Assembly (NCBI GenBank): GCA_022705745.1
Contig: JAKJDW010000004.1
Location: forward strand, 3,614-67,613
Source of the DNA: Patescibacteria group bacterium
GTDB taxonomy: Bacteria > Patescibacteriota > Gracilibacteria > Absconditabacterales > Absconditicoccaceae
DNA length: 64,000 nt
Reading direction: 5' to 3'
Below are positions 2,727 through 39,722 of the stretch, one piece after another. The translations under genes and the position numbers were made by a program. How positions within the stretch are numbered: position 1 is the stretch's first letter; each line of letters opens with the position of its first letter. The notes below the pieces were generated by a model that was not told where the DNA came from, made no database searches, and worked only from the letters and a program-made list of their open reading frames with translations.

Positions 2727-2734
2727 CTTTTTAA

Positions 2735-4053: not shown

Positions 4054-4097
4054 ATATAAGTTTGGACACAACTTCTACAACAATTTGTTTTACTATT

Positions 4098-4190: not shown

Positions 4191-4199
4191 ATATAAGTT

Positions 4200-4282: not shown

Positions 4283-4497
4283 TTTTTATACTTTATATAG
4301 TGAATACATTCTACCATTTCCCCCCAATAATATTAGCCGTGAGGCGCCCCGATACATCGGGGTGCAATTGACCGCTCTGCCATCTCCCCTTTTTATACTT
4401 TATATAGTGAATACATTCTACCATTTCCCCCAATAATATTAGCCGTGAAACGCCCTGATACATCGGGGTGCAATTGACAGCTCTGCCAATAAATAAT
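4283..4497 (-). repeat. Two tandem ~107-bp units, each a 52-bp upstream spacer plus a tRNA-Tyr 5' half whose anticodon stem-loop is replaced by a CCCCGATACATCGGGG hairpin
   Basis: Unit 1 is 4283-4389 and unit 2 is 4390-4497 (more decayed). agccgtgaggcg[CCCCGATACATCGGGG]tgcaattgaccgctctgccatctcccc compares with the real gene agccgtgaggcg[TCAGATTTACAGTCTGA]tgcaattgacc.... A third, weaker copy lies near 4527-4575. Confidence 0.7.
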
Positions 4498-4863
4498 TTT
4501 CTACTATTCTCTTCAAAATAAAATTAACTATGAGGTGTCCAGGTGGATCAGGGGACTATTGACCACTTCTTCGTATATTTTAAAACAACAAATACAGCAT
4601 AATATTGTTGCTTATAAGTATGACAATTATGTATATGAAAATAAAAAGCAAAATCAAGTGTTTTTATATTATTTTATCATTTTTTCGACAGAATGGTTGT
4701 TTTTAATCTCGCTTTGGTTCTATATGCTTGTTTAAAAATGAGAAAAAAAGATGGACTTTCCTAGCTTTACAAGCAAAAGAAAAAGTGAGGCGAGGTTTTT
4801 ATTTGGATTTGATTGATAAAAAAAGTTACTTTAAAATTATTTTATGATATCAAAGTAGCATAA

Positions 4864-5559
4864 TTATCTTTTGAATGCTTGAAGATGGTTTTTACTTCCG
4901 TTAAGAAGGATTTGGAGTCATTGTATTATAGAAGGGTGATTTTTGAACAATGGCATCATATTTTCTAAATCAACAATATCTTTTTCTTCAACCAAAATAC
5001 CAACCTGTATTGCTTCTGCGCTACTTGTTTTTCATTTTACTATAAGATCATCGTATAATTGTTGTAGTTCTGTATTTTTGAATTCTCCTGCTGACATTCA
5101 CTCAGTTGGATTTTCCAATCAGTATGCTTCCAAAATTGTTGCGATTACGGATTGATGGTTTATCTCTCCTTTTATTATATTATTAAGTCTTTTGTCGCCT
5201 CGCTGATCATACATTACTTGATATATATCTTGTGCCAACTTTTCTTCTTCTATAATAAATTGCAATTCAGAGATTTGTTCAGGAGTTAGATCAAGTCATG
5301 TATCCACAACAAGATTCATATGATTAATTCATGTTGCTGACGAATTGCGTCAGATTCCTTGTTGTCATCAACCACGAACTGTTTGTCCTCTTTTTGCGTT
5401 TCATCATCATTGTCATTGTTGTTGATTTGTAGTTATTTTAGAGCCTCTGGATTGAGATGTTAATTCTAGTCTGTTTCTATTGACTTGTTCAAGTGATGTA
5501 CATCAAGCAAATAAAAAAACTAATCCCAAAACTGAAAATAGTATTAATGTTTTTTTCAT
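4864..5559 (-). CDS. Lipoprotein with a ferritin-like DUF2202-type domain
   Basis: MKKTLILFSVLGLVFLFAGCTS... The lipobox is LFAGC, whose Gly is a TGA. A Gly/Gln-rich linker follows, then LTPEQISELQFIIEEEKLAQDIYQVMYDQRG...NHQSVIATILEAYGLENP...LQILLNGSKNHLQAFKR, which resembles DUF2202. Confidence 0.75.
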
Positions 5560-5732
5560 GACATATTTATAGTATATAAAAATGGAGGCCTTTTATATTT
5601 TTTATAAAAACTTTTTCAATAGATTTTCAAAATAAAAAAAATGTTTTTTAGCTTGTGTAAAAAACAAAACAAACCCTGTCTCAATATAAATCGCAAATTA
5701 ACTTTTTGATAATAATCTACAAATAAATATGC

Positions 5733-5972
5733 TTAAAAAGTACCAACAGAATCTGATTTGAGTGGTGATCACATATCTAATACACCAAACATATATAAAA
5801 CTCCTAATACTATAATACCGAATCAAAACAAAACTATAGCATTTCTCGTTCATCCAAGATATTTTTCAGCTCGTGCATTTTTACCTAAAAGATCAACTAG
5901 TTGCGCTGAATAATAAATCAAAACAGCCCCTATCAACATAAACAATGAACCCAAAATTATTTGTTTTCGCAT
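5733..5972 (-). CDS. Small membrane protein (79 aa, two predicted TM helices)
   Basis: MRKQIILGSLFMLIGAVLIYYSAQLVDLLGKNARAEKYLGGTRNAIVLFGFGIIVLGVLYMFGVLDMGSPLKSDSVGTF. Code-25 ORF ending in TAA. Confidence 0.5.
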
Positions 5973-6009
5973 TGTGTGTTTTTGATATAGTTTGTAAATG
6001 ATACAAAAT

Positions 6010-6083
6010 AGCGGGTAACGGGACTCGAACCCGTACGAACAGAGCTGAAGTCTGCTATGCTACACCAACTACATCATACCCGC
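6010..6083 (-). tRNA. tRNA-Gly with anticodon UCA, the decoder of reassigned UGA codons
   Basis: RC GCGGGTATGATGTAGTTGGTGTAGCATAGCAGACTTCAGCTCTGTTCGTACGGGTTCGAGTCCCGTTACCCGCT folds as a cloverleaf. Acceptor GCGGGTA/TACCCGC, D stem ATGT/GCAT, anticodon stem GCAGA/TCTGT, loop CT-TCA-GC, T arm ACGGG/CCCGT. G1:C72, C2:G71, G3:C70 and U73 are the bacterial Gly identity set. Confidence 0.85.
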
Positions 6084-10483: not shown

Positions 10484-10835
10484 GATGAATACGAACTTCG
10501 TTCGTGATAAGATGATGAAACTTGCCCCGCTTAGCGGAGTGAATGTTAAAGTGATAAAATGATAAAGTGATAAAATGTTAAAATGATAAAATGATAAAGT
10601 GATAAAATGATAAAGTGATAAAATGTTAAAATGATAAAGTGATAAAATGTTAAAATGATAAAATGATAAAGTGATAAAATGTTAAAATGATAAAATGATA
10701 AAGTGATAAAATGTTAAAGTGATAAAACTTGCCCCGCTAAGCGGGGTGAATGTTGAAATGCTAAATGCTTGTCCCGCTTAGCGGGGTGAATGATGAGGTG
10801 ATAAATGCCTGTCAATAAGCAGGGTTCCTTGTTTT
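10484..10835. repeat. Composite cluster R2: three CTTGCCCCGCTTAGCGGGGTGAATG-type hairpins bracketing an 8-nt microsatellite
   Basis: aaacttgccccgcttagcggagtgaatg (about 10518-10545), aaacttgccccgctaagcggggtgaatg (about 10724-10751), atgcttgtcccgcttagcggggtgaatg (about 10766-10793), and gcctgtcaataagcagggt. Confidence 0.9.
10541..10728. repeat. 8-nt tandem repeat (TGATAAAA / TGATAAAG / TGTTAAAA), about 23 units
   Basis: Direct reading: gaatgttaaagtgataaaatgataaagtgataaaatgttaaaatgataaaatgataaagtg... uninterrupted for about 188 nt between two copies of the same GC hairpin. Confidence 0.95.
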
Positions 10836-14735: not shown

Positions 14736-15115
14736 GGTGCTGTTCTTGCAACCCCGCTTGTGGAAATTTTTAAGCTACAGGTAGGAGAAACAGCAAATTG
14801 TCTCCCTTTATCAAAGGGAGCTGGTCTCCCCCGCTGAATAGCGGGGGTAGAGGGATTTATATACAGCTTGTCATTTCGACTAAGTGAACGAAGTGAACAC
14901 ACGGAGACAAAGAAATCCTTCCCTCGGGGGAAGCTGTTCTAATGTAGTTGGGGGTAAAACCCCCACCTAGCTACACAAACAACCTCCCCCAAGGGAGGAA
15001 CTTTTGTCACAACAAACTGTCTCCCTTCATAGAAGGTAGCTGCTCTCCCCGCCCCGCTTAAACAGCGGGGCAGAATTGCGGGGATAGAGGGATTTAACAT
15101 CCTCCCATTTCTTGC
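14736..15115. repeat. Composite cluster R3 of GC-rich palindromic modules
   Basis: ttgtctccctttatcaaagggagctggtct, cccccgctgaatagcggggGTAGagggatttatataca, gtcatttcgactaagtgaacgaagtgaac, cttccctcgggggaagctgttctaatGTAGttgggggtaaaacccccacctagctac, cctcccccaagggagg, ctgtctcccttcatagaaggtagctgctct, ccccgcttaaacagcgggg, cagaattgcgggg. Confidence 0.95.
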
Positions 15116-15173
15116 AATATAAATAAATCTATAGACTTATAAAAAACAAAAAAATCTCCCCAAAGGAAGACTC

Positions 15174-15392
15174 TTATAGGCTATTTCGTTCATCTACTGA
15201 AATTCAGATATATTCAATTATACAATTTACAACTCATCTTGAAATATCTTTTCATCAATGATTTGGGAATGGAACTCTATATCCATCTTTCATCATAAAC
15301 ATATGTTTTCATCACACATAAGGTCATTCAAATCAAAGTTTTCTTAATTTCTTCACCAATTCTCTAGCATTAATAGGTGTAACTTTAGGCAT
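15174..15392 (-). CDS. hicA: Type II toxin HicA (mRNA interferase)
   Basis: MPKVTPINARELVKKLRKLGFEGPYVGGKHMFMMKDGYRVPFPNHGGKDISRGVVNCIIEYIGISVDERNSL matches the HicA pattern (..el.k.L...GF......GSH..f...g..v.vP.H.gkdi..G.l..il...gi). The ATG overlaps the hicB stop (TATGCCTAA). Confidence 0.85.
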
Positions 15393-15624
15393 AACCAAAC
15401 TCTTTATTCATAGTAAAATCCTTTTTTAAGTCTATTTTCCCATTTTTAATATCATCTATCATCAATGTTTCTATTAAATTGATCATATTTCATCTTGCAT
15501 CCTCAAAACTATCTCATTGAGTAAAATATCATGGTTTATTTGGGATTTTTGCAATAACCACTCAATCTTCATCTTTGTAATATACTGTTTGGTCTAATAA
15601 GGAATGAATATAATTTGTGAACAT
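15385..15624 (-). CDS. hicB: Type II antitoxin HicB (UPF0150-like)
   Basis: MFTNYIHSLLDQTVYYKDEDGVVIAKIPNKPGYFTQGDSFEDARGNMINLIETLMIDDIKNGKIDLKKDFTMNKEFGYA. HicB-like block y.a.iP..pG..tQGdt.eEA..n. It lies directly upstream of and overlaps hicA. Confidence 0.8.
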
Positions 15625-15721
15625 TTTCCCATTAGTTACTGGATAAAACTAATCCAATTATAAACATAAAAGCTATTTTTTCAAGCTGAAAATAAATCTT
15701 TGAATCAATGAACAAATTTCA

Positions 15722-16345
15722 GTTGTATTTGTCATTTCGACTAAGTGAACGAAGTGAACGCACGGAGACAAAGAAATCCTTCCCTCGGGGGAAGTTGCTC
15801 TAGTGTAGTTGGGGGTAAAACCCCCACCTAGCTACGCAAACAACCTCCCCCAAGGGAGGAACTTTTGTCACAACAAACTGTCTCCCTTCATAGAAGGTAG
15901 CTGCTCTCCCCCGCTGAATAGCGGGGGTAGAGGGATTTATATACAACTGTCATTTCGACTAAGTGAACGCACAGAGAAATCTCTTTACAAAAAATGTCTC
16001 CCTTTATCAAAGGGAGTTGTTCTAATGCTGCGCCCCGCAGAATTGCGGGGGTAGAGGGATTTATATACAACTGTCATTTCGACTAAGTGAACGAAGTGAA
16101 CGCACGGAGAAATCTCTTTACAAAAAATGTCTCCCTTTATCAAAGGGAGTTGTTCTAATGTAGAGGGATTTATATACAGCTTGTCATTTCGACTAAGTGA
16201 ACGCACGGAAAAATCCACTTTTAACAAACTGTCTCCCTTTCGCGAAACAAAGTGGAGTCCTCTCCCGATATATCGGGATCTCACTTTGTTCGAGATCTAT
16301 CGGGACAAAGGGAGGTGACAATTTTCCCCCACCCTTTTTCCTTTT
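15722..16345. repeat. Composite cluster R4 of GC-rich palindromic modules, including about 125-bp tandem units and a three-level nested hairpin
   Basis: Starts with a 181-bp copy of the R3 segment (15731-15912). Then come repeated units GTAGagggatttatatacaactgtcatttcgactaagtgaacg(aagtgaacg)cacggagaaatctctttacaaaaaatgtctccctttatcaaagggagttgttctaatg. The nested element is at 16229-16316. Confidence 0.95.
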
Positions 16346-16508: not shown

Positions 16509-17003
16509 TTAATGAGAAATGTAATGTTTAATATTTATTAAATAATCAAAGTTTTCGTTCATCAAATCATTATATAGTGAAGATGCATATTTTTTGTTTG
16601 GGAATAATATTTTTAGAAATCTTTGTTTTTTGATTAAAAAATCTATGAGTATTTTGAAATCTCAATCTCACGAAACTATTAATATTTTATCAAATTTATC
16701 CGCCTCATCCAATAACTTTGCCATAACATGAAAAATTAAATCACTATCTATATTTCATTTTTTATTGGTCTCCATAAGTAATTGCTGTTTTTTGAAAACC
16801 ACAATAAATCATGCCTCTTGTAATTTAGTATACAATCGATTATTTTCATCTTGCATATAACCTATAAAATAATATGCCTTTTTTATTTTATATTTATCAA
16901 AAAGATAGATTCTCAATTTACTAAAATCTACTGACCATCACTCAGACCTTGTTCATAAATGTAAATTTTGACCATCAATATAAGCGATATTATTCTCTTT
17001 CAT
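16509..17003 (-). CDS. NYN-domain (LabA/DUF88-like, PIN-fold) predicted RNase, paralog A
   Basis: 164 aa: MKENNIAYIDGQNLHLGTRSEGWSVDFSKLRIYLFDKYKIKKAYYFIGYMQDENNRLYTKLQEAGFIVVFKKQ...KKGNIDSDLIFHVMAKLLDEADKFDKILIVSGDGDFKILIDFLIKKQRF. NYN hallmarks IDGQN, KGNID.D, SGDGDF. Confidence 0.85.
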
Positions 17004-17115
17004 CTTTCAAATAAAATATCAAATAAATGTTTCTTTATCTCTACACAAACTCCCAATCCAACGCCCAAACTTCCTGACCGCACCTCACCGACAATACTTT
17101 TATCTCCATTTTTAT

Positions 17116-17143
17116 TTGCAATTTAATTTTTTTTAGTTATAAT
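17116..17143 (+). promoter_or_regulatory. Promoter TTGCAA-16-TATAAT of candidate sRNA copy B
   Basis: TTGCAA at 17116-17121 and TATAAT at 17138-17143, identical to copy A. Confidence 0.55.
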
Positions 17144-17149
17144 GATATT

Positions 17150-17207
17150 GTTATCACGACGAAAGAGATTCCAAAAAGTGTTGGTGCTTTAGGACATCTC
17201 TTTTTTT
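17150..17207 (+). ncRNA. Candidate about 60-nt small RNA (copy B), antisense to the last codons and stop of NYN gene B
   Basis: agagattccaaaaag-TGTTGGTG-ctttaggacatctct followed by T7. The outer stem AGAGAT/ATCTCT replaces GAGAAGG/CCTTCT of copy A. The NYN-B stop codon (17189-17191) lies in the 3' arm. Confidence 0.45.
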
Positions 17208-17710
17208 GTTTGTTTAAAATACTCAATTTTTTTACGAATATCAAATAAACTTAAATTGATACCGTACTGGGGTTTAATGCTTTTATATAAAGATGAATAT
17301 TTATTGTTGGGGAATAAAATATTCTTAAAAATATTCTTTTGAATAAGATATTTTACCATCTTTATGTAATCTCAATCTCATGATACTAATACAATTTTAT
17401 CAAATTTTTTATTTTCAATAATTGTTTTCATGGTCTCAAAAACAATGTCTGTATCGACATTTCACTTTTTCTTTCCTTCTAAAGACTGTGAATGCTCTCT
17501 AAAATATACTATAAATCAAGCTTTTTGCAAACTTTCGTATAAAGTTTGACACTCTTCATTTACATATCATAAAAAATAATATGCCGTTTCTACACAAAAT
17601 TTATCTTTTAAGTATTGCCTAAATCTTTTGTAGTCCATATTCCATCATGCACTTTGTAATCATAAATGTAAATTTTGACCATCAATATAAGCGATATTAT
17701 TCTCTTTCAT
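17189..17710 (-). CDS. NYN-domain predicted RNase, paralog B
   Basis: 173 aa: MKENNIAYIDGQNLHLGLQSAGWNMDYKRFRQYLKDKFCVETAYYFLGYVNEECQTLYESLQKAGFIVYFREH...KKGNVDTDIVFETMKTIIENKKFDKIVLVSGDGDYIKMVKYLIQKNIF.... The first 17 codons and the 5' leader (76 nt) are identical to paralog A. Confidence 0.85.
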
Positions 17711-17742
17711 CTTTCAAATAAAATATCAAATAAATACTTCTT

Positions 17743-18114
17743 TTACTTTATAAATCTAAAATACTCCATCTTTTTATTTCAAAAATTTATAAGCAATCAA
17801 ATTTTAACCTTATATACTTCCAAATAATTTATTAATTGCGCTTTATTTACATCTTCTATTTTTGTGGTTGCCTTTAATTCAACCATAATATCTTCGTCTA
17901 CCAAAAAATCTACCCTTCTATTTCATACATGTGTCCCATCATAATGAATTTGCATATTTTTTTCTCTCTCAAAAGTTAATCCAGCCTTTTGAAACTCTAA
18001 CAATAAGGCCCTTTGATAAACAACTTCTGGGAATCAACATCACAGCTCATTGTGTACCTTCATCGCACAACCTATTATTTTATATGTAATATCTCATTTG
18101 TAAAAATCATTCAT
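17743..18114 (-). CDS. GxxExxY protein (PD-(D/E)xK nuclease superfamily)
   Basis: 123 aa: MNDFYKGDITYKIIGCAMKVHNELGCGFPEVVYQRALLLEFQKAGLTFEREKNMQIHYDGTHVGNRRVDFLVDEDIMVELKATTKIEDVNKAQLINYLEVYKVKIGLLINFGNKKMEYFRFIK. GxxExxY here reads G-F-P-E-V-V-Y. Confidence 0.85.
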
Positions 18115-18204
18115 TACTATAATAATAAATAATATAAACAAAATCAATATACCAATAAAATATTAAATTGCAACACTTTTGTCAAAAAAAACTATGACAA
18201 GCGT

Positions 18205-18332
18205 CCACATCCACACCATCTACACCATCTGTGCTCATCTGTGTCATCTGTGCTCATCTGTGTCATCTGTGGTCATCTGTGGTCATCTGTGGTCATCTGT
18301 GGTCATCTGTGGTCATCTGTGGTTATCTGTGG
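18205..18332. repeat. 9-10-nt tandem repeat (CATCTGTGGT and variants), about 12 units
   Basis: ccatctacaccatctgtgctcatctgtgtcatctgtgctcatctgtgtcatctgtggtcatctgtggtcatctgtggtcatctgtggtcatctgtggttatctgtggttatctgg. Confidence 0.95.
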
Positions 18333-18336
18333 TTAT

Positions 18337-18402
18337 CTGGTGGTTTAAAAAAAAACCCCTCTCCTGCTCCCAATCCCGCGAGAACGGGAAAGAGAAAGGA
18401 AA
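18337..18402 (-). terminator. Terminator of the S-layer-like gene, built from a GC hairpin with a nested TCCCGCGAGAACGGGA module
   Basis: Minus strand reads aaaaaaCCCCTttcctttctctt[tcccgttctcgcggga]ttgggagcaggagAGGGGttttttttt. It lies about 60 nt downstream of the stop at 18461. Confidence 0.6.
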
Positions 18403-21319: not shown

Positions 21320-21394
21320 GTGTACATTAAAAAAAATATAAAAGGTACCACAATCTTTGTTAATTCGTGTATTAACGATCTCATGTCATTACCA

Positions 21395-21885
21395 AAACAT
21401 CATCTCAAACTCACCAAACCTAGCCCCCCTTAGCAAGGGGGGTAGGGGGGATCCGTCCACAACCAACTGTCTCCCTTTTTCAAAGGGAGCTGCTCTATTG
21501 TAGTAGTGGGATTTCTCCCCGCATAGCCCCCTTCGAACGAAGTGAAGCCCCGATTTATCGGGGAGCAAGGGGGGTAGGGGGGATCCGTCCACAACCAACT
21601 GTCTCCCTTTTTCAAAGGGAGCTGCTCTATTGTAGTGGGATTTCTCCCCACCTAGCCCCCTTCGAACGAAGTGAAGCCCCGATTTATCGGGGAGCAAGGG
21701 GGGAAGGGGGGATCCGTCCACAACCAACTGTCTCCCTTTTTCAAAGGGAGCTGCTCTATTGTAGTGGGATTTCTCCCCTTTTTCAAATTAACCATCTCCC
21801 TCATTAAATGAGAACTAGCTAAAGAAATCCTTCCCTTGGGGGAAGTTGTTCTATCGTAGTTGGGGGTAAGTATCCCCGGTTTCAA
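21395..21885. repeat. Composite cluster R6: about three tandem copies of a ~130-bp unit of GC-rich modules plus extra modules, just upstream of the S-layer-like gene
   Basis: Unit starts at 21433, 21565 and 21694 (periods 132 and 129 nt): gcaaggggggtaggggggatccgtccacaaccaactgtctccctttttcaaagggagctgctctattGTAGtgggatttctcccc.cctagcccccttcgaacgaagtgaagccccgatttatcgggga. Ends with cttcccttgggggaagttgttctatcGTAGttgggggtaag. Confidence 0.95.
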
Positions 21886-22509
21886 GCAAATTTGAAAAAC
21901 AAGTTTGAAGTAACATTTTGTATAACATGTGCTGTCTATACTCCTATAGACTAGCTACGAAACCTACACAAAATATATCTCCATATATTTAATGTAATGT
22001 TAAGGATCTACACGGTGTAAATAAACTAATTTGTAGGATGTGTTGGACTATCAAAACACAAATAGCGATAAAGATCAAATCTCTTTTTCCCCGTAGGTTT
22101 AGGAAAGGTGAAACCGACCAATACCTGTTATCTAAATATGTCTATGTAGACCAACAAATAACCGATCTACTCATCGTATCTCCATACGATAAGACCGATA
22201 AGGAAGTGGTAGCTTTTTCAACGAAGATTGCAAGACAAATGTAGACAGATTTTTACAAACAAAAAAGAGATACAAGATATCTTTCTTTGCATAAACCTGT
22301 GAACAAATGTGCTATAGACCTACGCTAGAAAAGCTTTGCCCTTCTGTATGGCTATACGAATCAGATGACAAATCGTGACAGCTTTGGGACTAGTGTTACA
22401 GTAAAAAAAAGAAAAAAATTAGCTTTAATATCAATCAAGGACTGTGTTTTGGAAATGGGAATCGTATTGTCCATTTTCGCTTGCCTTTTCATCGTTTTGG
22501 TATGTGATT

Positions 22510-22680
22510 ACCCTACCACCCGCAAGTCCCGGGGTCAATTTTCACACTCGGGTGGTGCTGAGTAGAGGGGATCTGGCCACAAGGGGGAAAAACAGCCCCC
22601 CTTAACAAGGGGGGGTAGGGGGGATTTCAGCCACAAGTGGAAGAGACTAGCGACTATTGACTATCGACTAACGACTAATG
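22510..22680. repeat. Composite cluster R7 (3' side of comEC)
   Basis: ccctaccacccgcaagtcccggggtcaattttcacactcgggtggtg, GTAGaggggatctggccacaagggggaaaaacagccccccttaacaagggggggtaggggggatttcagccacaag, then a short CGACTA-periodic tract (gactagcgactattgactatcgactaacgactaatg). Confidence 0.9.
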
Positions 22681-22681: not shown

Positions 22682-24541
22682 CTATCTCCTCATCCTTACT
22701 AATACTAACCAAACAATAAACAATCCTAACAAAACATACTTAATCCAACTTCCTTCTGCATGCAAATAAACCCCAAATTTCTGTGCTAATTCGGACATGA
22801 AATAGATGTAATTCAACAACAACTTTTCTGGCCAAAGTCGAATTCCCCATGGAAGTGCTTGGAACAAAACCGTACTAATAAACCCATAAATCATCACTAC
22901 CGCAACAATCGGAACTACAAGAAAGTTCGCAATAATTCATGTCAAATTTGTCGTTCCCATAAAAAACAACATCACAGGCAAAACTCCAATCGTAGCTCCA
23001 ACCGTAGGAGTAACAAACTCTTTGAGAAATTTCTGAAATCATGTTTTGAATAAATTTTTTTTCTTTTTGGAAGTAATGGTGGTTTGTTTTTCGTTATTAG
23101 CTCACGGTTTATTGAAATAACTTACACAATTTTCTATCAATTTTCAAAAATAAATTATTCCTATAATAGCTGAAAAACTAAGCAAAAACCCGACATCATA
23201 AGCCAAAAAATACGGATTTATGATCAACATGACAATGAATGCAATAGACATCGCCCTCCAAATATTGATCTCTTTTCACCAAAAAAGTGCCAACATTCCT
23301 AGTCATCACATCACTGTTGCTCTAAAAACCGAGCTGTCTAGTCAACAAATCATGGAATACAAAATAATTGTCAGCAAAATTACCGCATTTCTCACATAAA
23401 AAGGCAGAAAAAATAAAATCGCTCACAAAAAAACTACTATCATAATAATATTTCATCAGCTAACCGCGATAATGTGGACAAGTCACGATTTCACGAATCA
23501 TTGATAATCGTCTGGCGGAATCTGCGATCTATCTCAAACCAACATTCACAAAACCAATCCAGCTTGTTTATTTTCTCCGTAGGCAGATACTACCATCTTT
23601 TGCAAGCCCTTCCTAATTTTCTGAATAAAAGAAATCTTGCTTTTGCAATTCTGCTCTGAAAGAGAATGTAAGTTCTCATCATTACCTTTTCCAGAAAAAT
23701 TGTCTCCCTTTATCAAAGGGAGCTGCTCTCCCCGCACCGCCCCGCAGTATTGCGGGGCTACAGGAGGGTAGAGAGATTTTTTTAATCCTTTAGTCCCCGA
23801 AAGACTGTGGAGCGGAGCTAAAAAAGGAGGATAAATTTGAGCCACAAGCGAGACATTCTTCCCTTGGGGGAAGTTGTGTGCGAAGCTAGATGGGGGTAAG
23901 AAATCTTCTGTTTCAAAAACATCATCAGCAAAATTATGATATTCACATTCATCCTTGAAAACTAAATAACTTTGCCCATATATCGTACCATAAAACCCTT
24001 TCATCATCAGCCATTTGGAGTAATTGAACTCATAATCAAATAGTCATGACAAGCTCGGTTTGCTGACAAAATCATTCCATTGCTTTTGAAAATCAAAAAT
24101 ATTTCCCGCTCCCGTATAAGCTAGATCCACCCTTCAATTTAGCCACAAAATATCTCAAATTTCAAATTTTCTTGAAGAAATTAAAAAATATTCGCGCCCA
24201 GCATTGTCTTGGAAAATGTATTTTTGATAAGAATAAATATCGGAAACAATACCCGTTCCTACAAAATATTTTCAAACAGGTCAGTCCATATCACGCGAAA
24301 TTCTTCATTCTAAATTGGGCAAAGATTTGATATCCTGATCGTACTTATAATTTTTGACAAAAATAGACAGAATAGAAATTAGAAATGCTAATGTAATTAA
24401 CAAGGATGTACGAGCAGTATTTTTGAATTTTTTAACAATAGAATGTCAAAGTAATAATAGAATCAACAGCAACAATGCTAAAAAAACATTCTCAAAAACC
24501 GTTAAAACAAATACAAATATCGCAAATGATATTATGAACAT
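22682..24541 (-). CDS. comEC: DNA internalization competence protein ComEC/Rec2 (619 aa) with an in-frame palindromic-element insertion
   Basis: MFIISFAIFVFVLTVFEN...SKWLMMKGFYGTIYGQSYLV... [insert] ...AGLVLGMLVGDRSQIPPDDYQGFVKSGLVHIIAVSGGNIIMIVVFLGAI...AYDVGFLLSFSAIIGIIYF...GATIGVLPVMLFFMGTTNLTGIIANFLVVPIV. ComEC blocks LG.r..i.....F..sG..Hi.AvSG. The 1860-nt frame is continuous. Confidence 0.85.
23699..23905. repeat. Cluster R8: GC-rich palindromic modules inside the comEC reading frame
   Basis: attgtctccctttatcaaagggagctgctct, ccccgcaccgccccgcagtattgcggggCTACagg, agggtagagagattttttta, cttcccttgggggaag. On the coding strand these read ...FPQGKNVSLVAQIYPPFLAPLHSLSGTKGLKKSLYPPVAPQYCGAVRGEQLPLIKGDNFSG... 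with no stop. Confidence 0.9.
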
Positions 24542-24571
24542 GGATTGTATTATTGATTAATTAAATCATCT

Positions 24572-24658
24572 TCTATCCTATCACTCTACCACCCGGGTGC
24601 TGTTTGACCCCGGGATAACTCCCGGGGTCTATTTTGACCCGGGTGGTAGGGTGATCTT
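24572..24658. repeat. Cluster R9: CTACCACCCGGGTG...CCCGGGTGGTAG hairpin with a nested CCCCGGGATAACTCCCGGGG
   Basis: tcactctaccacccgggtgctgtttgaccccgggataactcccggggtctattttgacccgggtggtagggtga. Related half-copies occur at 22513-22556 and 25808-25820. Confidence 0.9.
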
Positions 24659-24660
24659 AC

Positions 24661-25590
24661 TTACTTAATGAACTTACTCACCTTGTCCGAACTAGAGAGA
24701 GAAACAAACTCTTTCTCAAAAACCTTTAATGGGTACAAAAAGTGCAATCTAGACCCAATCCCCGCATCACAAGACTGAAACAATTTCAAAGTATCCAACA
24801 AAGAATGCTTCGTCCAATCATAAACCACTAAATCTGGAATAACTTTTCTCAAGCCAGAATAGAATCCCTTATCAAAACTAATGTCTGCAGGGAAAAATAT
24901 TTTTTTATGATCTGGATATTTCAAAACAAATTTCTTTATTTTTTCAATATTATCATCTGTGAAATGCTTCGGAGAAATGTTGATCAAAACCGTGGAGGAC
25001 AAAGAAACTGGATTCTTGTTTTTGAAATCTTCTAAAATATCTTTAGAAAAATCCTGATACAAAACCGCTGATTTCGCTCAATACTGAACCGCTCTTTCAT
25101 AGGATATTTTTTCTCTACAAATAACCCTTTTTGTTTTCTTGAACATATATTTGAACAATTTTTTTGTATATTTTTTTTGATCCGTACCAATTCATCACAC
25201 TAAAATAAAATTCTTTTTCCTAATGTCATGGCGATACAATATTTTCAAATTCCATCAATCGTGTGGGAACTTTCTAGACTCATCTAAAACTTCTCATCAC
25301 CCAAAAACTTTGAAATATTTTCTATATTTATCCAATCAAAGAAATATCTGTAATTGGCGAAACCTCCTGCTAATCACCGCATTTTCTACGAAATCTAGTT
25401 TATCTAAAATTCATGGTTCTAGCCAGGTTTTGTTGTGTTGTATCCGGGTCTGTATCCGTTGCAAATCTCAAACCTCTACGGTAAAAGATTCTGGATTGTA
25501 TTCTCTTTGCAAATAATTTAACAGACCAAAAAATAGCATTTCATCTCCAAAATTTCTATAGCCATAAAATCATTTGATATAAAGTTTCAT
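24661..25590 (-). CDS. Polysaccharide pyruvyl transferase family protein (CsaB-like)
   Basis: 309 aa: MKLYIKGFYGYRNFGDEMLFFGLLNYLQREYNPESFTVEVGD...FKVFGGGEVLDESRKFPHDGWN...FILVGGIGTDQKK...CDAGIGSRLHFLYPLKVF. The opening block GyyG..N.GDe.l resembles CsaB. Confidence 0.65.
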
Positions 25591-25823: not shown

Positions 25824-28800
25824 TTATAAATTAAATAAATACTCCAAATACTCTTCTTTCAACTGCTGATATTTTTGAACTATCGGTGGCGGAACAAGCT
25901 CATTAATTCTCTGATTCAAAGAACTTGAAACCGTTGATGGATACTGAGATTCATACATCGCTTTGAATTCGTTTGTACTATAAACATTACCGTCAAGCTC
26001 TATCGTAGAATCTCAATTACTTATAGCTTTTTCTATCTGATTTAACAGGTCAAAATAATTTTTTATCTCACTATTGTAATACATCACTCTCCAGTTACTC
26101 TTTAGATATTCCTCAAAAACATCAAAATACTCTTTGTAAAGTTTGTTTTGATTCAATCTCTTTGTAGACAGTTTAGAATAAGGCATGTTTTTACAATAAA
26201 ATTTCTGTCCGCCGTATGTCAAACAAACCTGATTTCAGAAATTCTGTAATTTCGCCGTTTTTAATACGCCAAAATCATCAACAATAATAGATTCCAAAAC
26301 TCAATTGGATACCAAAAACTTTTGTCATTCTGTTGGATGAGGATAACAAAATTTATCAAAAATAATATTTTTGTATCATAGTTCTATGCAGGTTGCCTTG
26401 TTTGGTAACGAAAAATTTCATGTAAGCAAAGTCTCTTGATGTGGGACCAGTATTCAAGCAAGTTTTTTCTTGGTGCTTCAGATTTTCAAGTAAAATCCAT
26501 TAGCCAAATTGATATTTTTTGAATATCATTGTGAAAGTAAAGAAGGATCTGACTCATTTTCATCGTTTGTGGACAAAGAATCTATGGATGAACGAAGTAC
26601 AGAAGGATCAATTGTGTAAAGTAATCGTACCGACTCTCAAAGCGAATCCTTCCCTTTTGGATTTGGGATTAGTCAAGTAATTTTTATGTCTACTCCTGTC
26701 AACTCATTTTCTTCTTTTTCCAAAAGTTTATCCTTCTCTGGATCATAGCTATATGTGGCAAAAATCGTATCTTCATACATCAAAGAAATCGTAGTAGCTT
26801 TAGTGTTTGGGAAGCTAAAAGTTCATCTCAAAGTTTTTGTCTCGTTTGGCGATATTCATCAATAATTTTTCAAGGATTTTTTGGTAGTATTTACCATTAA
26901 ATAAAATCATTCCGAAAACTGAATTGGGAATCATTTATGCATAGTGATTGTAATTTCCTCCTTGTCCTTATCATCTCACTCCGGATCATACAGAACATAG
27001 TCTATGGTAAACTCATAATCATCCAAAATTTTAGTTTCTTCTACAGGACACAATCTTTTTCAAAAACATGGAGAAGCCCGCAATCACAAGCTATTTTGTT
27101 GAGCATATTTTTGAGCTGATTGAAATAATGATTGATATTTATAGTTTTTTCATTTATATGAATACTCTCGTGCATATCAATTTTTAACTAATTTTTCGTT
27201 TATATTTTCTCAGTTCAAAAAAACATATCACACAAACCTATCAAAATCATCTTTTTCTGCTTGCTGAAACGAAATCGTTTTATTTGCGAGTAGGGAATTA
27301 AGATATTCTTTTGCTTCTGGCCCAAAACATTCAACTTTCCCACATCTCAAAGCAGAAGATTCTGGTGCGTCTATTCAAGCAAGTCTGATATTAAACTCCT
27401 GTTCCAGATAAGAAATTTTGATAGTATCTCCATCAATAATGGAAATAACCTTGTATTCTCCGTCTGGAATTTCTTTGATTTTGTTTGGATTGTAAATGTA
27501 TGTGTCCACTATTTGCTGGTTTGAATTGAGAATATGAACAATTACAGGATTTTTGTCTTGGGTACTATTTGGTAAGGTATAATCTCACTTGAAAGTCTGC
27601 TCAGCCCCAAAAGTTAGAATTCATTTTAGACTTTTATTTGTAGCTTTCCCCTCTTTTATATATTGCAAAGTGTATTGTGACAGATCAACCTGTGTTCCAG
27701 TAAGTAGTAATAATGTAATAGTTTCGTTATCTTTATCAGATCAAGGTGGATCATAGTCTATATGTTTTATCTTTATGTTTTTCAAAGAAGCTATATTTCA
27801 GGTGAAAAGTTCTTCTTCCAATTCTTCATCAATCTCTTCTTCATCTATATCTATCCAGAACTCTAATTGGTTTTGGATATTTTCTTCATCTGTTCCACTA
27901 GCTTTGGACATAGAGTTTCTACAGTATCTATCTATAATTTTTCAATCTTTTATCAGATTTATACAATGATCAGTTTTTGTAGGGAATCAGTACTTTCAGA
28001 CAAATGACATAGTCTCTTTGGCGAACAAAGTATTTCATTTTATTGATTTTATTTCCCCATCAAATCATTGAACCTTGTAATCTCTAAGATTAATATCGGA
28101 ATTAGTTTTATTTTTTAATTTCAAAATCTGATAGTTTCAATAATATTTCAAGCTAGATATTTGTATATCTCAGTTGATGGAATCGTTGGTGTTGAATTGG
28201 AATCATTCAGCTTGCGGACAGAATCATCATCAGTTATTTACTTTAATATATTGAACAACTGGCTCCGGAGAAATCTGAATAAATTGGCTTTGTCATATTG
28301 TCATTCATGGCGAAAACTTGTCTACATAATCAAAAACTCCTGCACACTGAATGAGATCAGTTCACATATACAAAGATATTCATTGGGTTCATCAATTTAG
28401 ATAAACTATATCCAACACTTCCAAATCAGCCCCATCTTTTCAATAAACAATGAGCCATCCAGAACTATTTAAAGAAAAATTTGAATCATATAAGGAATCT
28501 CGTCATTCATTATATCGGACATCGGAATCTGTGATGAGAAACCTCTTTCCTAGTTGTAATTCAGTAGAACTGAGTACGATTTCCTGATCCAAAGCAGATC
28601 CTCAAAGTTTTATTTGAGGGTAATCATCCCCTACATCATCCGTAATATTCAGCTCCACATAAGAAGGATAAATTCAGCTTCAATAGTAAACTTCAGAAAT
28701 ATCCAAAATCCAATCCGCATAAAAATCATCGCAATCTATCGGTATATTTAGATCGTTTCCTGTGTTCCCGGGGTCTGGATTGTAAGGATTTTTGTTTAAT

Positions 28801-30155
28801 GTAACATCTATCAAATTCTCTCAAGTGGTGAAATATTTAGTTGGATTTGCTGCAATTCATCGATTAGTATTATAGTATCTGTCAGAATTTAATCCAACTA
28901 CTGTTGTTGTCCAGCTATCTCATGTTCAAATTTTTTCAAAAGAAGTTTTGTAATCTTGATAATAATCCACATAACTTGAATGAACAAAAAAATTATCCAA
29001 AACCTGTCCAGATCGTATTAAATCTAAGTTGAACTCTTCATTTGTGAAATTGATGGAATTAGCTATTGTCTGAATATTTTTTCATGTCTGAAACATCGAA
29101 TAAAGAGAATTTGCAAAAACTTTGGATACTCAGGATGGAATATTTGCAGAAAATGTGAAATTGAGATTCCCAGAAAGACTCAATTCTCCAGAGAATGTAT
29201 CATTTCAAATATTTGTGATTTCAAACCGGTTTTCATCTCAATCAAAGTAGATTTCCGTAGTTTTTAATTGAGGAATATTAGGTTCAGTTCAAGAATATTC
29301 GTTTAAATATTCTAGTTTAAAAGAACCAACTCATAAGTTTCATATTCATTTTTCGTATGTAAGTGTTATTTGTGTGACTGTGTTTGAAACACTAAATATG
29401 ATATTTTTTTCTTTATTTGGTAAGAAATCCGCAAATTCAAAAATAACTTCATCATTTTGATCTGTGAATATTGCTTTTCCGGAAAATACCGATCCTCAAG
29501 GAACAGAACTACCATTTGCTTTTGTTCGAACAGTTGCTTGTGCACCTGTTGTGAGTATGAATTCTGGACTTTTTAGTCGATCTCAAGAAGAATCAAATTT
29601 TAATTTAGGGGCTGTTGATGTATAATCACTACCTAATCAATAGGCTGTTCGTCATGTTGGGAGATTGGCTCTTCCATCCGCAAAAGAAACATCAAAAACA
29701 ATATTACCATTTCATTCTGTCGTCAATTGAGCTACTAGAGGGATAAAATTTTCTTCGCCAAAAATTTCATCGTTCCCAAAATCATCATCCATACAACTCT
29801 CATTGATAATTTCACCATTTGTCGTATCATCCCAAAATCAAGTCTGTTCATTTTGTCATTCTCCAACAAAATATTCTCAATTTAAGTCTGGGTTTTCTAA
29901 ATTGACACCTACGAATAAATTATTGTCTAAAAGCTGTCCAGTCTGTCAACCTTTGGTTATCGGTCACCAGAAATCGTCGTCTGGCTCTGTGTTTTCTAAG
30001 CTTCCTTTATTTTCAAAAAAATCGTCACTTAAGTTTGACGATTCTTGTTGTGGTTCCTTATAGTTTTCTACCTTATCTCATCGAACAAAACTAGAGGAAA
30101 AAACAGATTGAAATAAAATTAAAATAGACAATAATACAGACAAAATTTTTTTCAT
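25824..30155 (-). CDS. Giant secreted nuclease (1443 aa): signal peptide, about 800-aa beta-rich region, SNase (thermonuclease) domain and lamin-tail-like (LTD) repeats
   Basis: The frame is open over 4332 nt under code 25; I walked it codon by codon and saw no TAA or TAG. N-terminus MKKILSVLLSILILFQSVFSSSF. LTD-like IKHIDYDPPGSDKDNETITLLL, IDYVLYDPEGDDKDKEEITIT and ITGLIPNPKGKDSLGESVRLLY. SNase core YKVISIIDGDTIKISYLEQEFNIRLAGIDAPE...CFGPEAKEYL...DDFDRFVGYVFLNGENINEKLVKNGYAREY. Confidence 0.8.
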
Positions 30156-30736
30156 TTCATCTTATTAGTTGATAAATTTAATTTTTTATATTGTTTTGTC
30201 TAACATTGTCAACATTAAAAACATTGTGCTGTTAACTGCGAACAAATTATAAACCACCAACTCAAATAAACCTAATGTATTTGTAATATTTGTAAATCAA
30301 GTATTTGGAAATCAAGCTAGATATCTTTATACCAAAAAAATAACTCTTTTTTTTAAATCTTCTATTGACTTTTTTATTTCTAGATTATCCCTCAATCTCC
30401 TTTCTTTTACTTTAAATCACCCAACTTATTGTGGATGTAAATACAAATTCAAATCTACAAATACAAGGATTTGTATTGAAACAATGAAATAATGCTTGAT
30501 TTAATGAGAGGATAGGGTTGTTCTTTATAGTTATTTCTCAAGTTTATCAGTTCGTTTACCCCCATAGTATTGTGAAGTGGCGCAGACAATGGAGTAGTGG
30601 GAAAATGTAAAAATACTAATCCTTATAGGACTGAAATAACATATCTTTTATCTTGAAAGTAATAAAAGTTTTATTACTATTTGAGTAGTTTGATTCTGTA
30701 TCAAAACACATAGATGGTTTATTTACTATTGAAAAT

Positions 30737-39533: not shown

Positions 39534-39722
39534 GCAAAGTTTGTAAAGTTGAAAGTTTATAAAGTTGCAAGTTAAAAGTTTGTAAAGTTAAAAGTTGAAA
39601 GTTTATCAAGCTGCAAGTTATAAGTTTGTAAAGTTAAAAGTTGAAAGTTTATCAAGCTGCAAGTTATAAGGCGCTTATGAACTTTACAAACTTTATGAAC
39701 TTTACAAACTTAAACGACTATT
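39534..39722. repeat. AT-rich word-repeat cluster with a 58-bp direct duplication and inverted GTTTGTAAAGTT / AACTTTACAAAC arms
   Basis: gcaaagtttgtaaagttgaaagtttataaagttgcaagttaaa[agtttgtaaagttaaaagttgaaagtttatcaagctgcaagttata]x2 aggcgcttatgaactttacaaactttatgaactttacaaactt. Confidence 0.9.

What the first reader, a model, noticed from the sequence alone, without database searches (positions are those of the whole stretch)
23699..23905. Palindromic-element cluster inserted in frame inside comEC, adding about 70 residues to the protein
The comEC reading frame (22682-24541, minus strand) stays continuous through about 207 nt made of the same modules found in intergenic clusters. These are TGTCTCCCTTTATCAAAGGGAGCTGCTCT, CCCCGCAGTATTGCGGGGCTAC, a GTAGAG...-type unit and CTTCCCTTGGGGGAAG.

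The translated insert (...FPQGKNVSLVAQIYPPFLAPLHSLSGTKGLKKSLYPPVAPQYCGAVRGEQLPLIKGDNFSG...) falls between the N-terminal OB-fold/DUF4131-like part and the conserved LG.R...G..H..A.SG channel domain. The flanking ORF pieces share the same frame (both have coordinates equal to 2 mod 3).

This parallels Rickettsia palindromic elements, which insert in frame into protein genes. It is not something I know to be reported for CPR bacteria.
Basis: partly seen in the sequence, partly recalled or inferred. Interest (0 to 1): 0.75.

Follow-up and report, generated by a model that had tools for sequence, protein, structure and literature searches.

The report
Palindromic repeats inserted in-frame in comEC
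A cluster of small hairpin-forming repeats that normally sit between genes has landed in frame inside the DNA-uptake channel gene comEC of an uncultivated Absconditabacterales bacterium, adding a floppy ~70-residue loop that the protein tolerates; this is a known kind of event (as in Rickettsia) seen here in a new bacterial group and at a strikingly recurrent site.

Summary
Under genetic code 25 (TGA sense), comEC (22682-24541, minus strand, 619 aa, Pfam Competence E 4e-43) reads through a 50%-GC block (23694-23905; the rest of the gene is 33% GC). The block is built from the same modules that form about 9 intergenic clusters in the window (chance expectation 0-0.3).

The allele is real and functional:
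- The same insert with an intact frame occurs in five other assemblies.
- dN/dS between insert-bearing alleles is about 0.15, both upstream and downstream of the insert.

AlphaFold puts the insert in the only segment below pLDDT 50 (aa 215-286). It loops out between the OB-fold region and the channel domain. A short-linker ortholog has a 7-residue turn at that position.

Across 118 orthologs this linker has a median of 12 aa, but 48 carry expansions of at least 6 cassette types. A strain about 96% identical carries a different palindromic cassette at the same site. A REP-associated tyrosine transposase lies next to comEC in sister strains and itself carries an in-frame cassette.

Verdict: these are tolerated selfish REP/RPE-like DNA in a permissive loop. 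This is a new member of a known kind (Rickettsia RPEs, intragenic GTAG/CGTC REPs). I found no report of it for candidate phyla radiation (CPR) bacteria. Interest is moderate.

The parts
22682..24541 (-). comEC coding sequence (619 aa, code 25, 22 in-frame TGA = Gly codons). It has N-terminal TM helices, a beta-rich OB-like region, the insert, and the Competence channel domain. There is no C-terminal metallo-beta-lactamase domain.
   Evidence: PF03772 aa 333-617, E 4e-43; Absconditabacterales ComEC homologs; dN/dS about 0.15.
23694..23905 (+). In-frame palindromic-module cluster, the insert, encoding ComEC aa ~213-283. GC is 50% against 33% for the rest of the gene. Only the frame in use is free of stop codons.
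   Evidence: DNA/RNA fold z-scores are -3.8 and -3.9, with 0 of 200 shuffles folding as well.
23697..23729 (+). Module M1 (AAATTGTCTCCCTTTATCAAAGGGAGCTGCTCT). It forms an 8-bp hairpin, 23704-23711 / 23715-23722. On the gene strand the hairpin is followed by ACAATTTTTC, which matches a terminator-like consensus.
   Evidence: families D2/D3, 12-13 copies; 10 copies, 0 expected; (terminator-like match; 3 found against 1.8 expected, so not significant).
23737..23815 (+). REPIN-like doublet. The M2 palindrome (CCCCGCAGTATTGCGGGG, 23740-23757) reads GTAG-CCCCGCAATACTGCGGGG on the gene strand. It is joined by a spacer containing the GTAGAGAGATTT unit (23768-23779) to a degenerate inverted copy M2' (23787-23815). 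Together they form a 25-pair long hairpin.
   Evidence: helix 23737-23765 / 23786-23815; (GTAG tag).
23829..23905 (+). D15-like unit (GGATAAATTTGAGCCACAAGCGAGAC) plus module M4 (23851-23877; 6-bp hairpin CTTCCC/GGGAAG at 23858-23873) and its tail ...GCTAGATGGGGGTAAG.
   Evidence: families D9, D15, D18; 5 copies, 0 expected.
23660..23919 (-). The segment that is replaced in the ~96%-identical allele L003. It is 260 nt here. In L003 it is 122 nt and carries a CACCCGGGT...ACCCGGGTGG palindromic cassette instead.
24572..24661 (.). Intergenic palindromic element immediately upstream of comEC (CTACCACCCGGGT...GACCCCGGGAGTTATCCCGGGGTC...ACCCGGGTGGTAG). It belongs to the same family as the cassette that occupies the comEC linker in L003. 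In L001, L002 and L040 this spot instead holds a RAYT gene with other modules.
22493..22654 (.). Intergenic module cluster immediately downstream of comEC, containing CCCCCCTTAACAAGGGGGG and CACCCGAGTG...GGGTGGTAG units.

Best explanation
What it is. The insert is a mosaic cluster of short, GC-rich, hairpin-forming repeats that became inserted into the comEC gene of an Absconditabacterales bacterium that uses genetic code 25. These repeats are REP/BIME/REPIN-like elements that normally live between genes in this AT-rich genome. The insertion point is the linker between the N-terminal OB-like region and the membrane channel (Competence) domain.

Why it survived. It landed in a permissive, probably extracytoplasmic loop. 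Its net length is a multiple of three. The frame it fell into happens to lack TAA and TAG. It is therefore translated as a proline- and glycine-rich peptide of about 70 residues that is probably disordered and loops out of an otherwise unchanged fold. ComEC remains functional.

What kind of thing it is. This is selfish DNA that is tolerated, not a designed domain. The same linker has been colonised repeatedly and independently by different repeat families across the order. It has even been swapped between near-identical strains.

Shown versus inferred:
- Shown: the repeat identity, the intact frame in six assemblies, purifying selection on both halves of the gene, the looped-out low-confidence position, and recurrence at this site.
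- Inferred: mobilisation by a REP-associated tyrosine transposase (about 0.4 confidence for this sub-claim), the extracytoplasmic location, and neutrality.
For: Repeat identity and chance:
- Module copies against chance expectation are 10 vs 0, 6 loci vs 0, 5 vs 0, and 13 vs 0.3.
- 36% of the linker DNA matches repeats elsewhere in the window. For the other 1549 nt of the gene the figure is 0%.
- GC is 50% in the insert and 33% in the rest of the gene.
- The insert folds into hairpins with z about -3.9.

Real and in frame:
- The identical insert is found in L001, L002, L040, L043 and L045, with full-length or frame-intact ORFs.

Functional gene:
- dN/dS is 0.14-0.16 at dS about 0.07 between insert-bearing alleles. 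The upstream half gives 0.11 and the downstream half 0.19.

Survivorship rather than design:
- Only 1 of 6 frames is open. Composition-matched shuffles are open 13.5% of the time.

Structure:
- In the insert-bearing model (pTM 0.74) the only segment below pLDDT 50 is aa 215-286.
- The short-linker control (pTM 0.80) has a 7-residue turn at that position and the same flanking elements.

Hot spot:
- The linker is 8-111 aa across loci and 118 homologs, with a median of 12 aa and at least 6 cassette types.
- In L010, L012, L015 and L017 the linker DNA matches repeats elsewhere in the same contig.
- Intragenic dispersed repeats were found in 4 of 26 comEC genes against 1 of 264 neighbouring ORFs, Fisher p = 2.4e-4.
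- An alternative cassette occupies the same site in L003, which is 96% identical.

REP/RAYT link:
- The L001 neighbour gene passes the NCBIfam equivalog cutoff for REP-associated tyrosine transposase (85.5 bits, cutoff 80). It also carries an in-frame cassette.
- M2 has the canonical 5'-GTAG tag.

Precedent:
- Intragenic REPs and RPEs are documented (PMC3733652; PMC10969869).
Against: - No transposase is encoded in the 64-kb window.
- The RAYT in sister strains is flanked by module families that are absent from the window. There is therefore no direct link between that enzyme and M1, M2 or M4.
- The GTAG tag is canonical only for M2 and one other family, not for M1 or M4.
- No terminal inverted repeats or target-site duplication mark the insert borders. 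The insertion mechanism (transposition, recombination or template switching) is unresolved.
- Low pLDDT in the insert partly reflects the absence of alignment depth there, so disorder is not proven.
- Only 3 substitutions separate the insert copies, so selection on the insert peptide itself cannot be assessed.
- No expression or read-level data were available.
Confidence: 0.8

Rival explanations
1. Adaptive variable loop. The OB-to-channel linker of ComEC is a selected landing pad. Repeat cassettes are recruited and exchanged there to diversify a surface-exposed loop of the DNA-uptake machine, for example to escape phage or host recognition or to tune DNA binding.
For: - At least 6 cassette types recur at one site.
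- Strains 96% identical carry different cassettes.
- comEC is enriched for such inserts over neighbouring genes, p = 2.4e-4.
- The loop is probably extracytoplasmic by the positive-inside rule.
Against: - The same pattern is expected from a merely permissive loop combined with a high flux of repeats.
- 70 of 118 orthologs keep the short linker.
- The cassette peptides share no sequence and are predicted to be unstructured.
- Other ComEC loops also accept repeat-like inserts.
- No test of positive selection was possible.
Confidence: 0.12
2. Copying without transposition. The cluster was copied into comEC by illegitimate recombination, gene conversion or replication template switching from an intergenic cluster. 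Hairpin-prone DNA would promote this. No dedicated transposase would be involved.
For: - The insert has no TIRs or TSD at its borders.
- The M1-hairpin-GTAGAG module order copies that of the intergenic cluster at 14795-14858.
- The window encodes no RAYT.
- Whole cassettes appear to be swapped between alleles with diverged flanks.
Against: - A bona fide RAYT exists in sister strains, adjacent to comEC.
- M2 carries the GTAG tag that RAYTs cleave (PMC3733652).
- IS200/IS605-type Y1 transposition leaves no TSD or TIR, so their absence does not discriminate between the two mechanisms.
Confidence: 0.3
3. Intragenic regulatory element. The hairpins attenuate or terminate comEC transcription, or stabilise an mRNA segment, so the insert acts at the RNA level and not as protein.
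For: - The M1 hairpin on the gene strand is followed by ACAATTTTTC and is flagged as terminator-like.
- The insert RNA is strongly structured, z = -3.9.
Against: - Terminator-like hits are not enriched: 3 found against 1.8 +/- 1.5 expected.
- The Competence domain downstream of the insert is under purifying selection, dN/dS 0.19. It must therefore be expressed.
- Cassettes at this site in other lineages have unrelated sequences.
Confidence: 0.05
4. Artefact or pseudogene. The insert is an assembly chimera through repeats, or comEC is decaying.
For: Repeats are a classic cause of misassembly. Logan contig L003 shows a different sequence at the same site.
Against: - Five other independent assemblies carry the same junctions and the same frame.
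- dN/dS is about 0.15 on both sides of the insert.
- No stop or frameshift occurs in any allele.
Confidence: 0.02

Closest known systems
Rickettsia palindromic elements (RPE; Ogata et al. 2000, as summarised in PMC10969869 and PMC3733652)
   Same: - Dispersed palindromic repeats are inserted in frame into protein-coding genes of a small, AT-rich genome of a host-dependent bacterium.
- The host gene stays functional.
- The extra peptide sits at a surface or loop position compatible with the fold.
   Different: - There is no sequence relationship to RPEs, and the phylum is different.
- RPE-1 is a single unit of about 100-150 bp, whereas this insert is a mosaic of 16-50-nt modules.
- RPEs are CGTC-tagged and lack a dedicated transposase (PMC3733652). 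Here one family is GTAG-tagged and a RAYT is present in sister strains.
- In Rickettsia nearly half of the copies are genic. In this window only 1 of about 9 clusters is genic.
GTAG-tagged REP / BIME / REPIN elements with RAYT transposases (REPtrons); intragenic REPs of Opitutus terrae, Xanthomonas recB and others (PMC3733652; PMC3116915)
   Same: - The elements are short GC-rich imperfect palindromes, mostly extragenic, arranged in mosaic clusters and inverted doublets that fold into longer hairpins.
- One family carries a GTAG tag.
- A RAYT equivalog is flanked by palindromes.
- Occasional in-frame intragenic copies encode 20-30 aa or more.
- There is precedent for different REPs at about the same site of one gene (Xanthomonas recB).
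   Different: [quoted passage not shown]
- The genome uses code 25.
- The insert is unusually large (about 70 aa, built from 4-5 modules).
- M1 and M4 lack the canonical tag.
- A cognate RAYT for these particular modules has not been identified.
- The hot spot recurs across a whole order, with at least 6 cassette types.
MITEs that create in-frame fusions (ERIC, BOX, Nezha and others; PMC10969869)
   Same: These are small non-autonomous repeats that are found inside ORFs and read through.
   Different: No terminal inverted repeats or target-site duplications were found at the borders. The modules are much shorter than typical MITEs.

Membership tests
ComEC/Rec2 DNA-uptake channel | Competence (PF03772) polytopic membrane domain | tested here: met
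   Pfam E 4.2e-43, aa 333-617, profile positions 1-268 of 270. There are 252 homologs, and sources name them ComEC/Rec2.
ComEC/Rec2 DNA-uptake channel | N-terminal OB-fold (DUF4131) domain preceding the channel | tested here: inconclusive
   PF13567 was not detected at E <= 0.01. The AF2 model has a beta-rich domain at aa 92-195. Foldseek gives only weak OB-fold hits (RPA, Stn1, IF1; E 0.3-0.6, probability 0.8-0.9).
ComEC/Rec2 DNA-uptake channel | C-terminal metallo-beta-lactamase nuclease domain (present in many ComEC proteins, not all) | tested here: not met
   The protein ends with the Competence domain at aa 619. All Absconditabacterales homologs are about 500-630 aa.
Rickettsia palindromic elements (RPE) | Dispersed palindromic repeat present in many copies in the genome | tested here: met
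   Modules recur 5-13 times in 64 kb against 0-0.3 expected. The insert folds with z about -3.9.
Rickettsia palindromic elements (RPE) | Inserted in frame in a protein gene that remains functional | tested here: met
   The ORF is continuous in six assemblies. dN/dS is about 0.15 on both sides of the insert.
Rickettsia palindromic elements (RPE) | Sequence homology to RPE families, or the CGTC tag | tested here: not met
   The module sequences are unrelated. The tag, where present, is GTAG, whereas RPEs are CGTC-tagged (PMC3733652).
Rickettsia palindromic elements (RPE) | A large fraction of copies lies inside genes | tested here: not met
   Only the comEC cluster, out of about 9 module clusters in the window, is genic. 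All other M1 copies recovered from metagenomes are intergenic.
REP/REPIN-RAYT system (GTAG REPs) | Short (20-40 nt) GC-rich imperfect palindromes, mostly extragenic, often clustered (BIME-like) or arranged as inverted doublets (REPINs) | tested here: met
   Searches show 59 GC-rich hairpins, nearly all in intergenic islands. The M2/M2' doublet forms a 25-pair hairpin. The CACCCGGGT element is an inverted doublet.
REP/REPIN-RAYT system (GTAG REPs) | Conserved GTAG tetranucleotide at one end of the palindrome | tested here: inconclusive
   The canonical 5'-GTAG arrangement holds for M2 (3 copies, including the comEC copy on the gene strand) and for the TGGGGGTAAAACCCCCA family (3 of 3). It does not hold for M1 or M4. 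GTAG is not the most enriched flanking tetramer overall.
REP/REPIN-RAYT system (GTAG REPs) | Cognate RAYT (HUH/Y1 transposase) in the genome, flanked by its REPs | tested here: inconclusive
   A RAYT equivalog (NF047646, 85.5 bits, cutoff 80) lies next to comEC in the 97.6%-identical strains L001, L002 and L040 and is flanked by GTAG-GCGCG palindromes. No RAYT is encoded in the window. The modules flanking that RAYT are absent from the window.
MITE | Terminal inverted repeats and a target-site duplication at the element borders | tested here: not met
   The only inverted pair found is internal (23779-23791 / 23823-23835, 77% complementary). The border sequences share only AGAAA.
Intein / self-splicing insert | Intein splicing motifs and a size of at least ~130 aa | tested here: not met
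   No Pfam domain falls in aa 200-330. The insert is 69 aa, low-confidence coil, and made of intergenic repeat DNA.

The most novel reading that the evidence does not exclude
The extracytoplasmic OB-to-channel linker of ComEC is a lineage-wide, selected landing pad in Absconditabacterales. REP-type selfish elements are repeatedly recruited there and exchanged between strains. This would generate strain-variable surface loops on the DNA-uptake machine, for example to evade phages or host defences that recognise ComEC, or to modulate DNA capture. Mobile palindromes would then be a genuine engine of adaptive protein variation in reduced CPR genomes.
Probability: 0.12. Interest if true: 0.8.

Novelty: new member of a known kind. 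Interest (0 to 1): 0.5.

Why it matters
ComEC is the conserved channel through which CPR bacteria import DNA. Natural competence has been demonstrated in Saccharibacteria (PMC10633639, seen). These bacteria cannot make nucleotides de novo.

The finding shows three things:
- REP-like selfish DNA and a RAYT transposase are active in Absconditabacterales, a code-25 lineage not among the phyla listed for such elements in PMC3733652.
- These elements can remodel an important membrane protein without killing it.
- One loop of ComEC absorbs such insertions again and again across an order-level clade.

There are also practical consequences:
- Gene callers using table 11 shatter these genes.
- Module clusters generate long spurious ORFs.
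- ComEC length variation in these metagenome-assembled genomes should not be read as pseudogenisation.
- The hot spot marks a structurally permissive site that could be used for tagging ComEC.

Tried and rejected
I used the 94%-identical database protein P0001 instead. It has the same insert, with TGA rendered as W.
- Searching the 72-aa insert peptide against the 5.8-billion-protein collection returned no candidates, not even P0001. This is uninformative and cannot be read as absence of other in-frame copies.
- Foldseek against the PDB found no ComEC-like structure, only weak OB-fold hits. Membrane orientation therefore rests on a crude hydropathy and positive-inside estimate.
- tblastn of the L001 RAYT against the window found nothing.
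- I looked for TIRs and a TSD at the insert borders and found none.
- I tested for general enrichment of GTAG next to all 59 hairpins and found none. Only two families carry the canonical tag.
- A GACCCCGGGA hit inside the 1445-aa ORF at 28766 is a chance 10-mer with no palindrome.
- GC skew follows gene orientation, so it could not be used to relate the strand bias of the modules to replication direction.
- The L004/L005 ortholog has a 77-aa linker that is not GC-rich and has no repeat matches. It may be an old, ameliorated insert, but I could not show that.
- Literature searches found no report of palindromic or REP elements in Absconditabacteria or Gracilibacteria genes. The library held is incomplete, so this is absence of evidence only.
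Full report

Yes. The window is 30% GC and uses a TGA-sense code. Stop-to-stop ORFs of at least 100 aa sum to 26,686 aa under code 25/4 against 5,534 aa under table 11. In-frame TGA codons fall at conserved glycines of ComEC, for example HIIAVSGGN.

Under code 25 the minus-strand ORF 22682-24541 is continuous. It encodes 619 aa with 22 TGA codons. Pfam Competence (PF03772) matches residues 333-617 at E 4e-43. The 252 detected homologs are ComEC/Rec2 proteins of Candidatus Absconditabacterales / SR1.

It is 50% GC, against 33% for the rest of the gene.

Each named module recurs in the window far beyond chance:
- M1 core: 10 copies, 0.00 expected.
- CCCCGCAGTATTGCGGGG: 6 loci, 0.00 expected.
- CTTCCCTTGGGGGAAG: 5 copies, 0.00 expected.
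- GTAGAGGGATTT: 13 copies, 0.30 expected.

All other copies lie in GC-rich intergenic islands at about 9.3, 14.8-16.3, 21.4-21.9, 22.5, 24.6, 25.7, 34.6, 38.2-38.6 and 60.2-60.4 kb. Among GC-rich islands longer than 60 nt, the comEC island is the only one inside a long ORF.

**2. Anatomy of the insert**

On the + strand the insert reads as follows:
- M1 (23697-23729), with an 8-bp hairpin.
- The M2 palindrome (23740-23757).
- A GTAGAGAGATTT unit (23768-23779).
- A degenerate inverted copy of M2 (23787-23815).
- A D15-like unit (23829-23854).
- M4 (23851-23877), with a 6-bp hairpin.
- A ...GATGGGGGTAAG tail ending at 23905.

M2 and its inverted partner pair over 25 positions (23737-23765 / 23786-23815), giving a REPIN-like doublet. 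The whole block folds much better than shuffles: DNA z = -3.8, RNA z = -3.9, with 0 of 200 shuffles folding as well.

The order M1, inner palindrome, GTAGAG copies that of the intergenic cluster at 14795-14858. No terminal inverted repeats or convincing target-site duplication mark the borders.

Only the frame in use is free of TAA and TAG. The other five frames have 2-4 stops. A composition-matched shuffle is open 13.5% of the time. The open frame is therefore what a survivorship filter would leave. It is not evidence of a designed coding element.

**3. Is the gene real, intact and functional?**

The same insert, with the same junctions and an intact reading frame, is present in five other assemblies:
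- L001 and L002 (ENA): 204 of 207 nt identical in the insert, 97.6% identical outside it.
- L040, L043 and L045 (JGI and other sources): 97.6-99.7% identical.

These alleles all carry the insert, so their divergence post-dates it. Outside the insert, dN/dS is 0.14-0.16 at dS of about 0.05-0.07. Taken separately, the upstream part gives 0.11 and the downstream Competence-domain part gives 0.19. Both halves are thus still under purifying selection. This excludes a pseudogene, a split gene and an assembly chimera.

The insert itself differs by only 3 substitutions (2 synonymous, 1 non-synonymous). That is too few to test selection on the insert.

**4. Where the insert sits in the protein**

The AlphaFold2 model of the 94%-identical P0001 (same insert; 63-sequence alignment) has pTM 0.74 and mean pLDDT 76.5. 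The only segment below pLDDT 50 is residues 215-286, modelled as coil. It lies between helix 198-213, which follows the beta-rich OB-like domain (strands 92-195), and helices 289-297 and 305-321, which lead into the channel domain.

A control model of a short-linker ortholog (P0017, 520 aa, pTM 0.80) goes from the last beta-strand (188-201) through a 7-residue turn directly into the equivalent helix (209-225). It shows no drop in confidence there.

Caveat: the low pLDDT in the insert partly reflects the lack of alignment depth, so disorder is likely but not proven.

Hydropathy and the positive-inside rule give this picture. The K/R-rich loops at 34-44 and 470-508 are cytoplasmic. The 286-residue soluble region 66-351 is then on the opposite side. 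This suggests that the OB-like domain and the insert are extracytoplasmic. This is inference. It agrees with the published Bacillus ComEC topology as I recall it. No ComEC structure exists in the PDB copy searched.

**5. The site is a recurrent hot spot**

In the alignment of orthologs, the stretch between 'YGTIYEQNS' and 'ISFIQKIRK' is hypervariable in length. The figures are:
- 8 aa in deep-branching genomes, including the complete SR1 genome RAAC1 (L032).
- A median of 12 aa over 118 homologs.
- 70 of 118 have 15 aa or fewer.
- 48 are longer.
- The window's 111 aa is the longest.

The long linkers fall into at least six unrelated peptide types:
- NPPTPF(Y/R)KGG.
- VILSETKNP...FFA(D/N)AQND, sometimes tandemly expanded.
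- VIPAKAGIH...GFPIRSGMTG.
- GFRPQSGTPEGGN.
- HPG...QHPGG.
- The M1/M2/M4 type described here.

Most are GC-rich relative to their genes.

In L010, L012, L015, L017 and the window, 36-63% of the linker DNA matches repeats elsewhere in the same contig. The rest of the gene matches at 0-12%.

A blind scan of 472 kb (290 ORFs of at least 150 aa) looked for dispersed repeats that sit inside an ORF and have intergenic partners. It recovered comEC in four lineages and only one doubtful 170-aa ORF elsewhere. That is 4 of 26 against 1 of 264, Fisher p = 2.4e-4.

L003 is about 96% identical in the flanking comEC DNA (dN/dS 0.155) but carries a different cassette at the same site. Its cassette is 122 nt against 260 nt here, a difference of 46 codons. 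It belongs to the CACCCGGGT...GACCCCGGGAGTTATCCCGGGGTC...ACCCGGGTGG family. In the window that family lies immediately upstream of comEC at 24572-24661.

Other ComEC loops also show repeat-like peptides in some orthologs: after TM2, at columns 275-295 of alignment A1, and after 'IIGIIYFGK'.

**6. What moves the modules?**

In L001, L002 and L040 the spacer upstream of comEC holds a 239-aa gene. It matches Pfam Y1_Tnp. It also passes NCBIfam's curated equivalog cutoff for REP-associated tyrosine transposase (NF047646, 85.5 bits, cutoff 80).

That gene is preceded by GTAG-GCGCG...CGCGCCTGC palindromes. It carries an in-frame cassette of those same modules, which splits the profile match into two stretches. 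Deleting the cassette in silico restores a single match covering profile positions 9-138 of 146. This is a second in-frame case in the same population.

M2 has the canonical REP arrangement, with GTAG immediately 5' of the stem. This includes the comEC copy on the gene strand. The TGGGGGTAAAACCCCCA family has it too. M1 and M4 do not.

The window encodes no RAYT, and the modules flanking the sister-strain RAYT are absent from the window. RAYT-mediated single-strand transposition is therefore a reasonable but unproven mechanism (about 0.4). Recombination or template switching between hairpin-prone clusters is the main alternative (about 0.3).

**7. Comparison with what is known**

In-frame palindromic inserts are classic in Rickettsia (RPEs; reviewed in PMC10969869). 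Di Nocera et al. 2013 (PMC3733652) showed the following:
- REPs sort into GTAG- and CGTC-tagged superfamilies.
- GTAG REPs associate with RAYTs.
- Both superfamilies occur inside genes in several species.
- Different REPs can occupy about the same site of one gene (Xanthomonas recB).
- Such insertions are probably neutral because they sit in linkers or loops.

GTAG REPs were listed there for Proteobacteria, Cyanobacteria, Chloroflexi and the PVC superphylum. My searches of the held literature found nothing for Absconditabacteria, Gracilibacteria or CPR.

The case here works like an RPE or an intragenic REP. By sequence features it is closer to the REP/BIME/REPIN kind. It is not a member of the RPE families: the sequences are unrelated and the tag is different.

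**8. Verdict**

The phenomenon is a new member of a known kind. The points of moderate novelty are:
- The lineage (code-25 Absconditabacterales).
- The host gene (the DNA-uptake channel).
- The size and mosaic nature of the insert.
- The order-wide recurrence at one linker, with strain-level cassette exchange.

Whether that recurrence reflects mere permissiveness, which I favour, or selection for a variable surface loop (about 0.12) remains open.

Noticed in passing
window 9300-60400 (module copies listed): The asymmetric module units (M1, M4, GTAGAGGGATTT) are on the + strand in 27 of 28 copies, across about 8 separate clusters. This holds regardless of the orientation of neighbouring genes or the local GC skew. 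Such strand bias is reminiscent of single-strand (Y1/HUH) transposition tied to replication direction. Copies within a cluster are not independent of one another.
   Followed up: partly
L001 5273-5992 (also L002 and L040); corresponds to window ~24560-24660: A REP-associated tyrosine transposase gene (NCBIfam NF047646, above cutoff) is present immediately upstream of comEC in 97.6%-identical strains. It is absent from the window, where a CACCCGGGT palindrome sits instead. The RAYT gene itself carries an in-frame palindromic cassette of about 54 aa (…CRREFEFAPAKGG…CRRDPVVLRGAPAKG…), made of the modules that lie just upstream of it.
   Followed up: yes
window 21371-21760: Three tandem copies of a ~130-nt composite of modules (98% identical between copies 2 and 3). 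They produce long spurious ORFs on both strands, for example 21389-21787 (132 aa under code 25). This is a trap for gene callers.
   Followed up: partly
window 10510-10765; 18252-18349; 39545-39682: Three unrelated tandem arrays. The first has an 8-nt period (A[AG]TG[AT]TAA, about 30 units) bracketed by CCCCGCTTAGCGG hairpins. The second has a 10-nt period (GTCATCTGTG, about 9 units) and lies next to the 975-aa secreted-protein gene. The third has a 23-nt period. Function is unknown.
   Followed up: no
alignment A1 columns ~90-125, 275-295 and 625-700 (orthologs P0010-P0012, P0015, P0019, P0024, P0049 and others): Besides the main linker, at least three other ComEC loops carry repeat-like, G/P-rich inserts in some orthologs. 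Examples are IRPRGQ..DPGV, PPTIEQPPLKGEE and SPLYERGFRGF. ComEC as a whole therefore seems unusually insertion-tolerant in this order.
   Followed up: partly
window 22682-24541 and 25824-30161: This ComEC lacks the C-terminal metallo-beta-lactamase nuclease domain. Two genes away lies a 1445-aa secreted protein whose ortholog in L001 has SNase (PF00565) and a faint LTD hit. It may be an extracellular nuclease partner for DNA uptake.
   Followed up: no
window 2046-6083: A cluster of six tRNA genes (Rfam) is interspersed with another hairpin family (TCCCGCAATTCTGCGGGA at 3426, 3672 and 4121) and with 65-nt direct repeats at 4318-4573.
   Followed up: no
window 16509-18162 and 14868-15911: There are two paralogous NYN-domain genes (16509-17099 and 17189-17755, sharing blocks 73-95% identical) next to a PD-(D/E)XK (PDDEXK_3) gene. 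A 183-nt module block is duplicated 861 nt apart (14868-15050 and 15729-15911, 97% identical). This looks like a repeat-rich, possibly rearranging region.
   Followed up: partly
L004/L005 comEC linker (P0003): A 77-aa linker that is not GC-rich and matches no repeats, but contains an AT-rich hairpin (GAGTTTCAGAAATGAAACTC). It could be an old, compositionally ameliorated insert.
   Followed up: no
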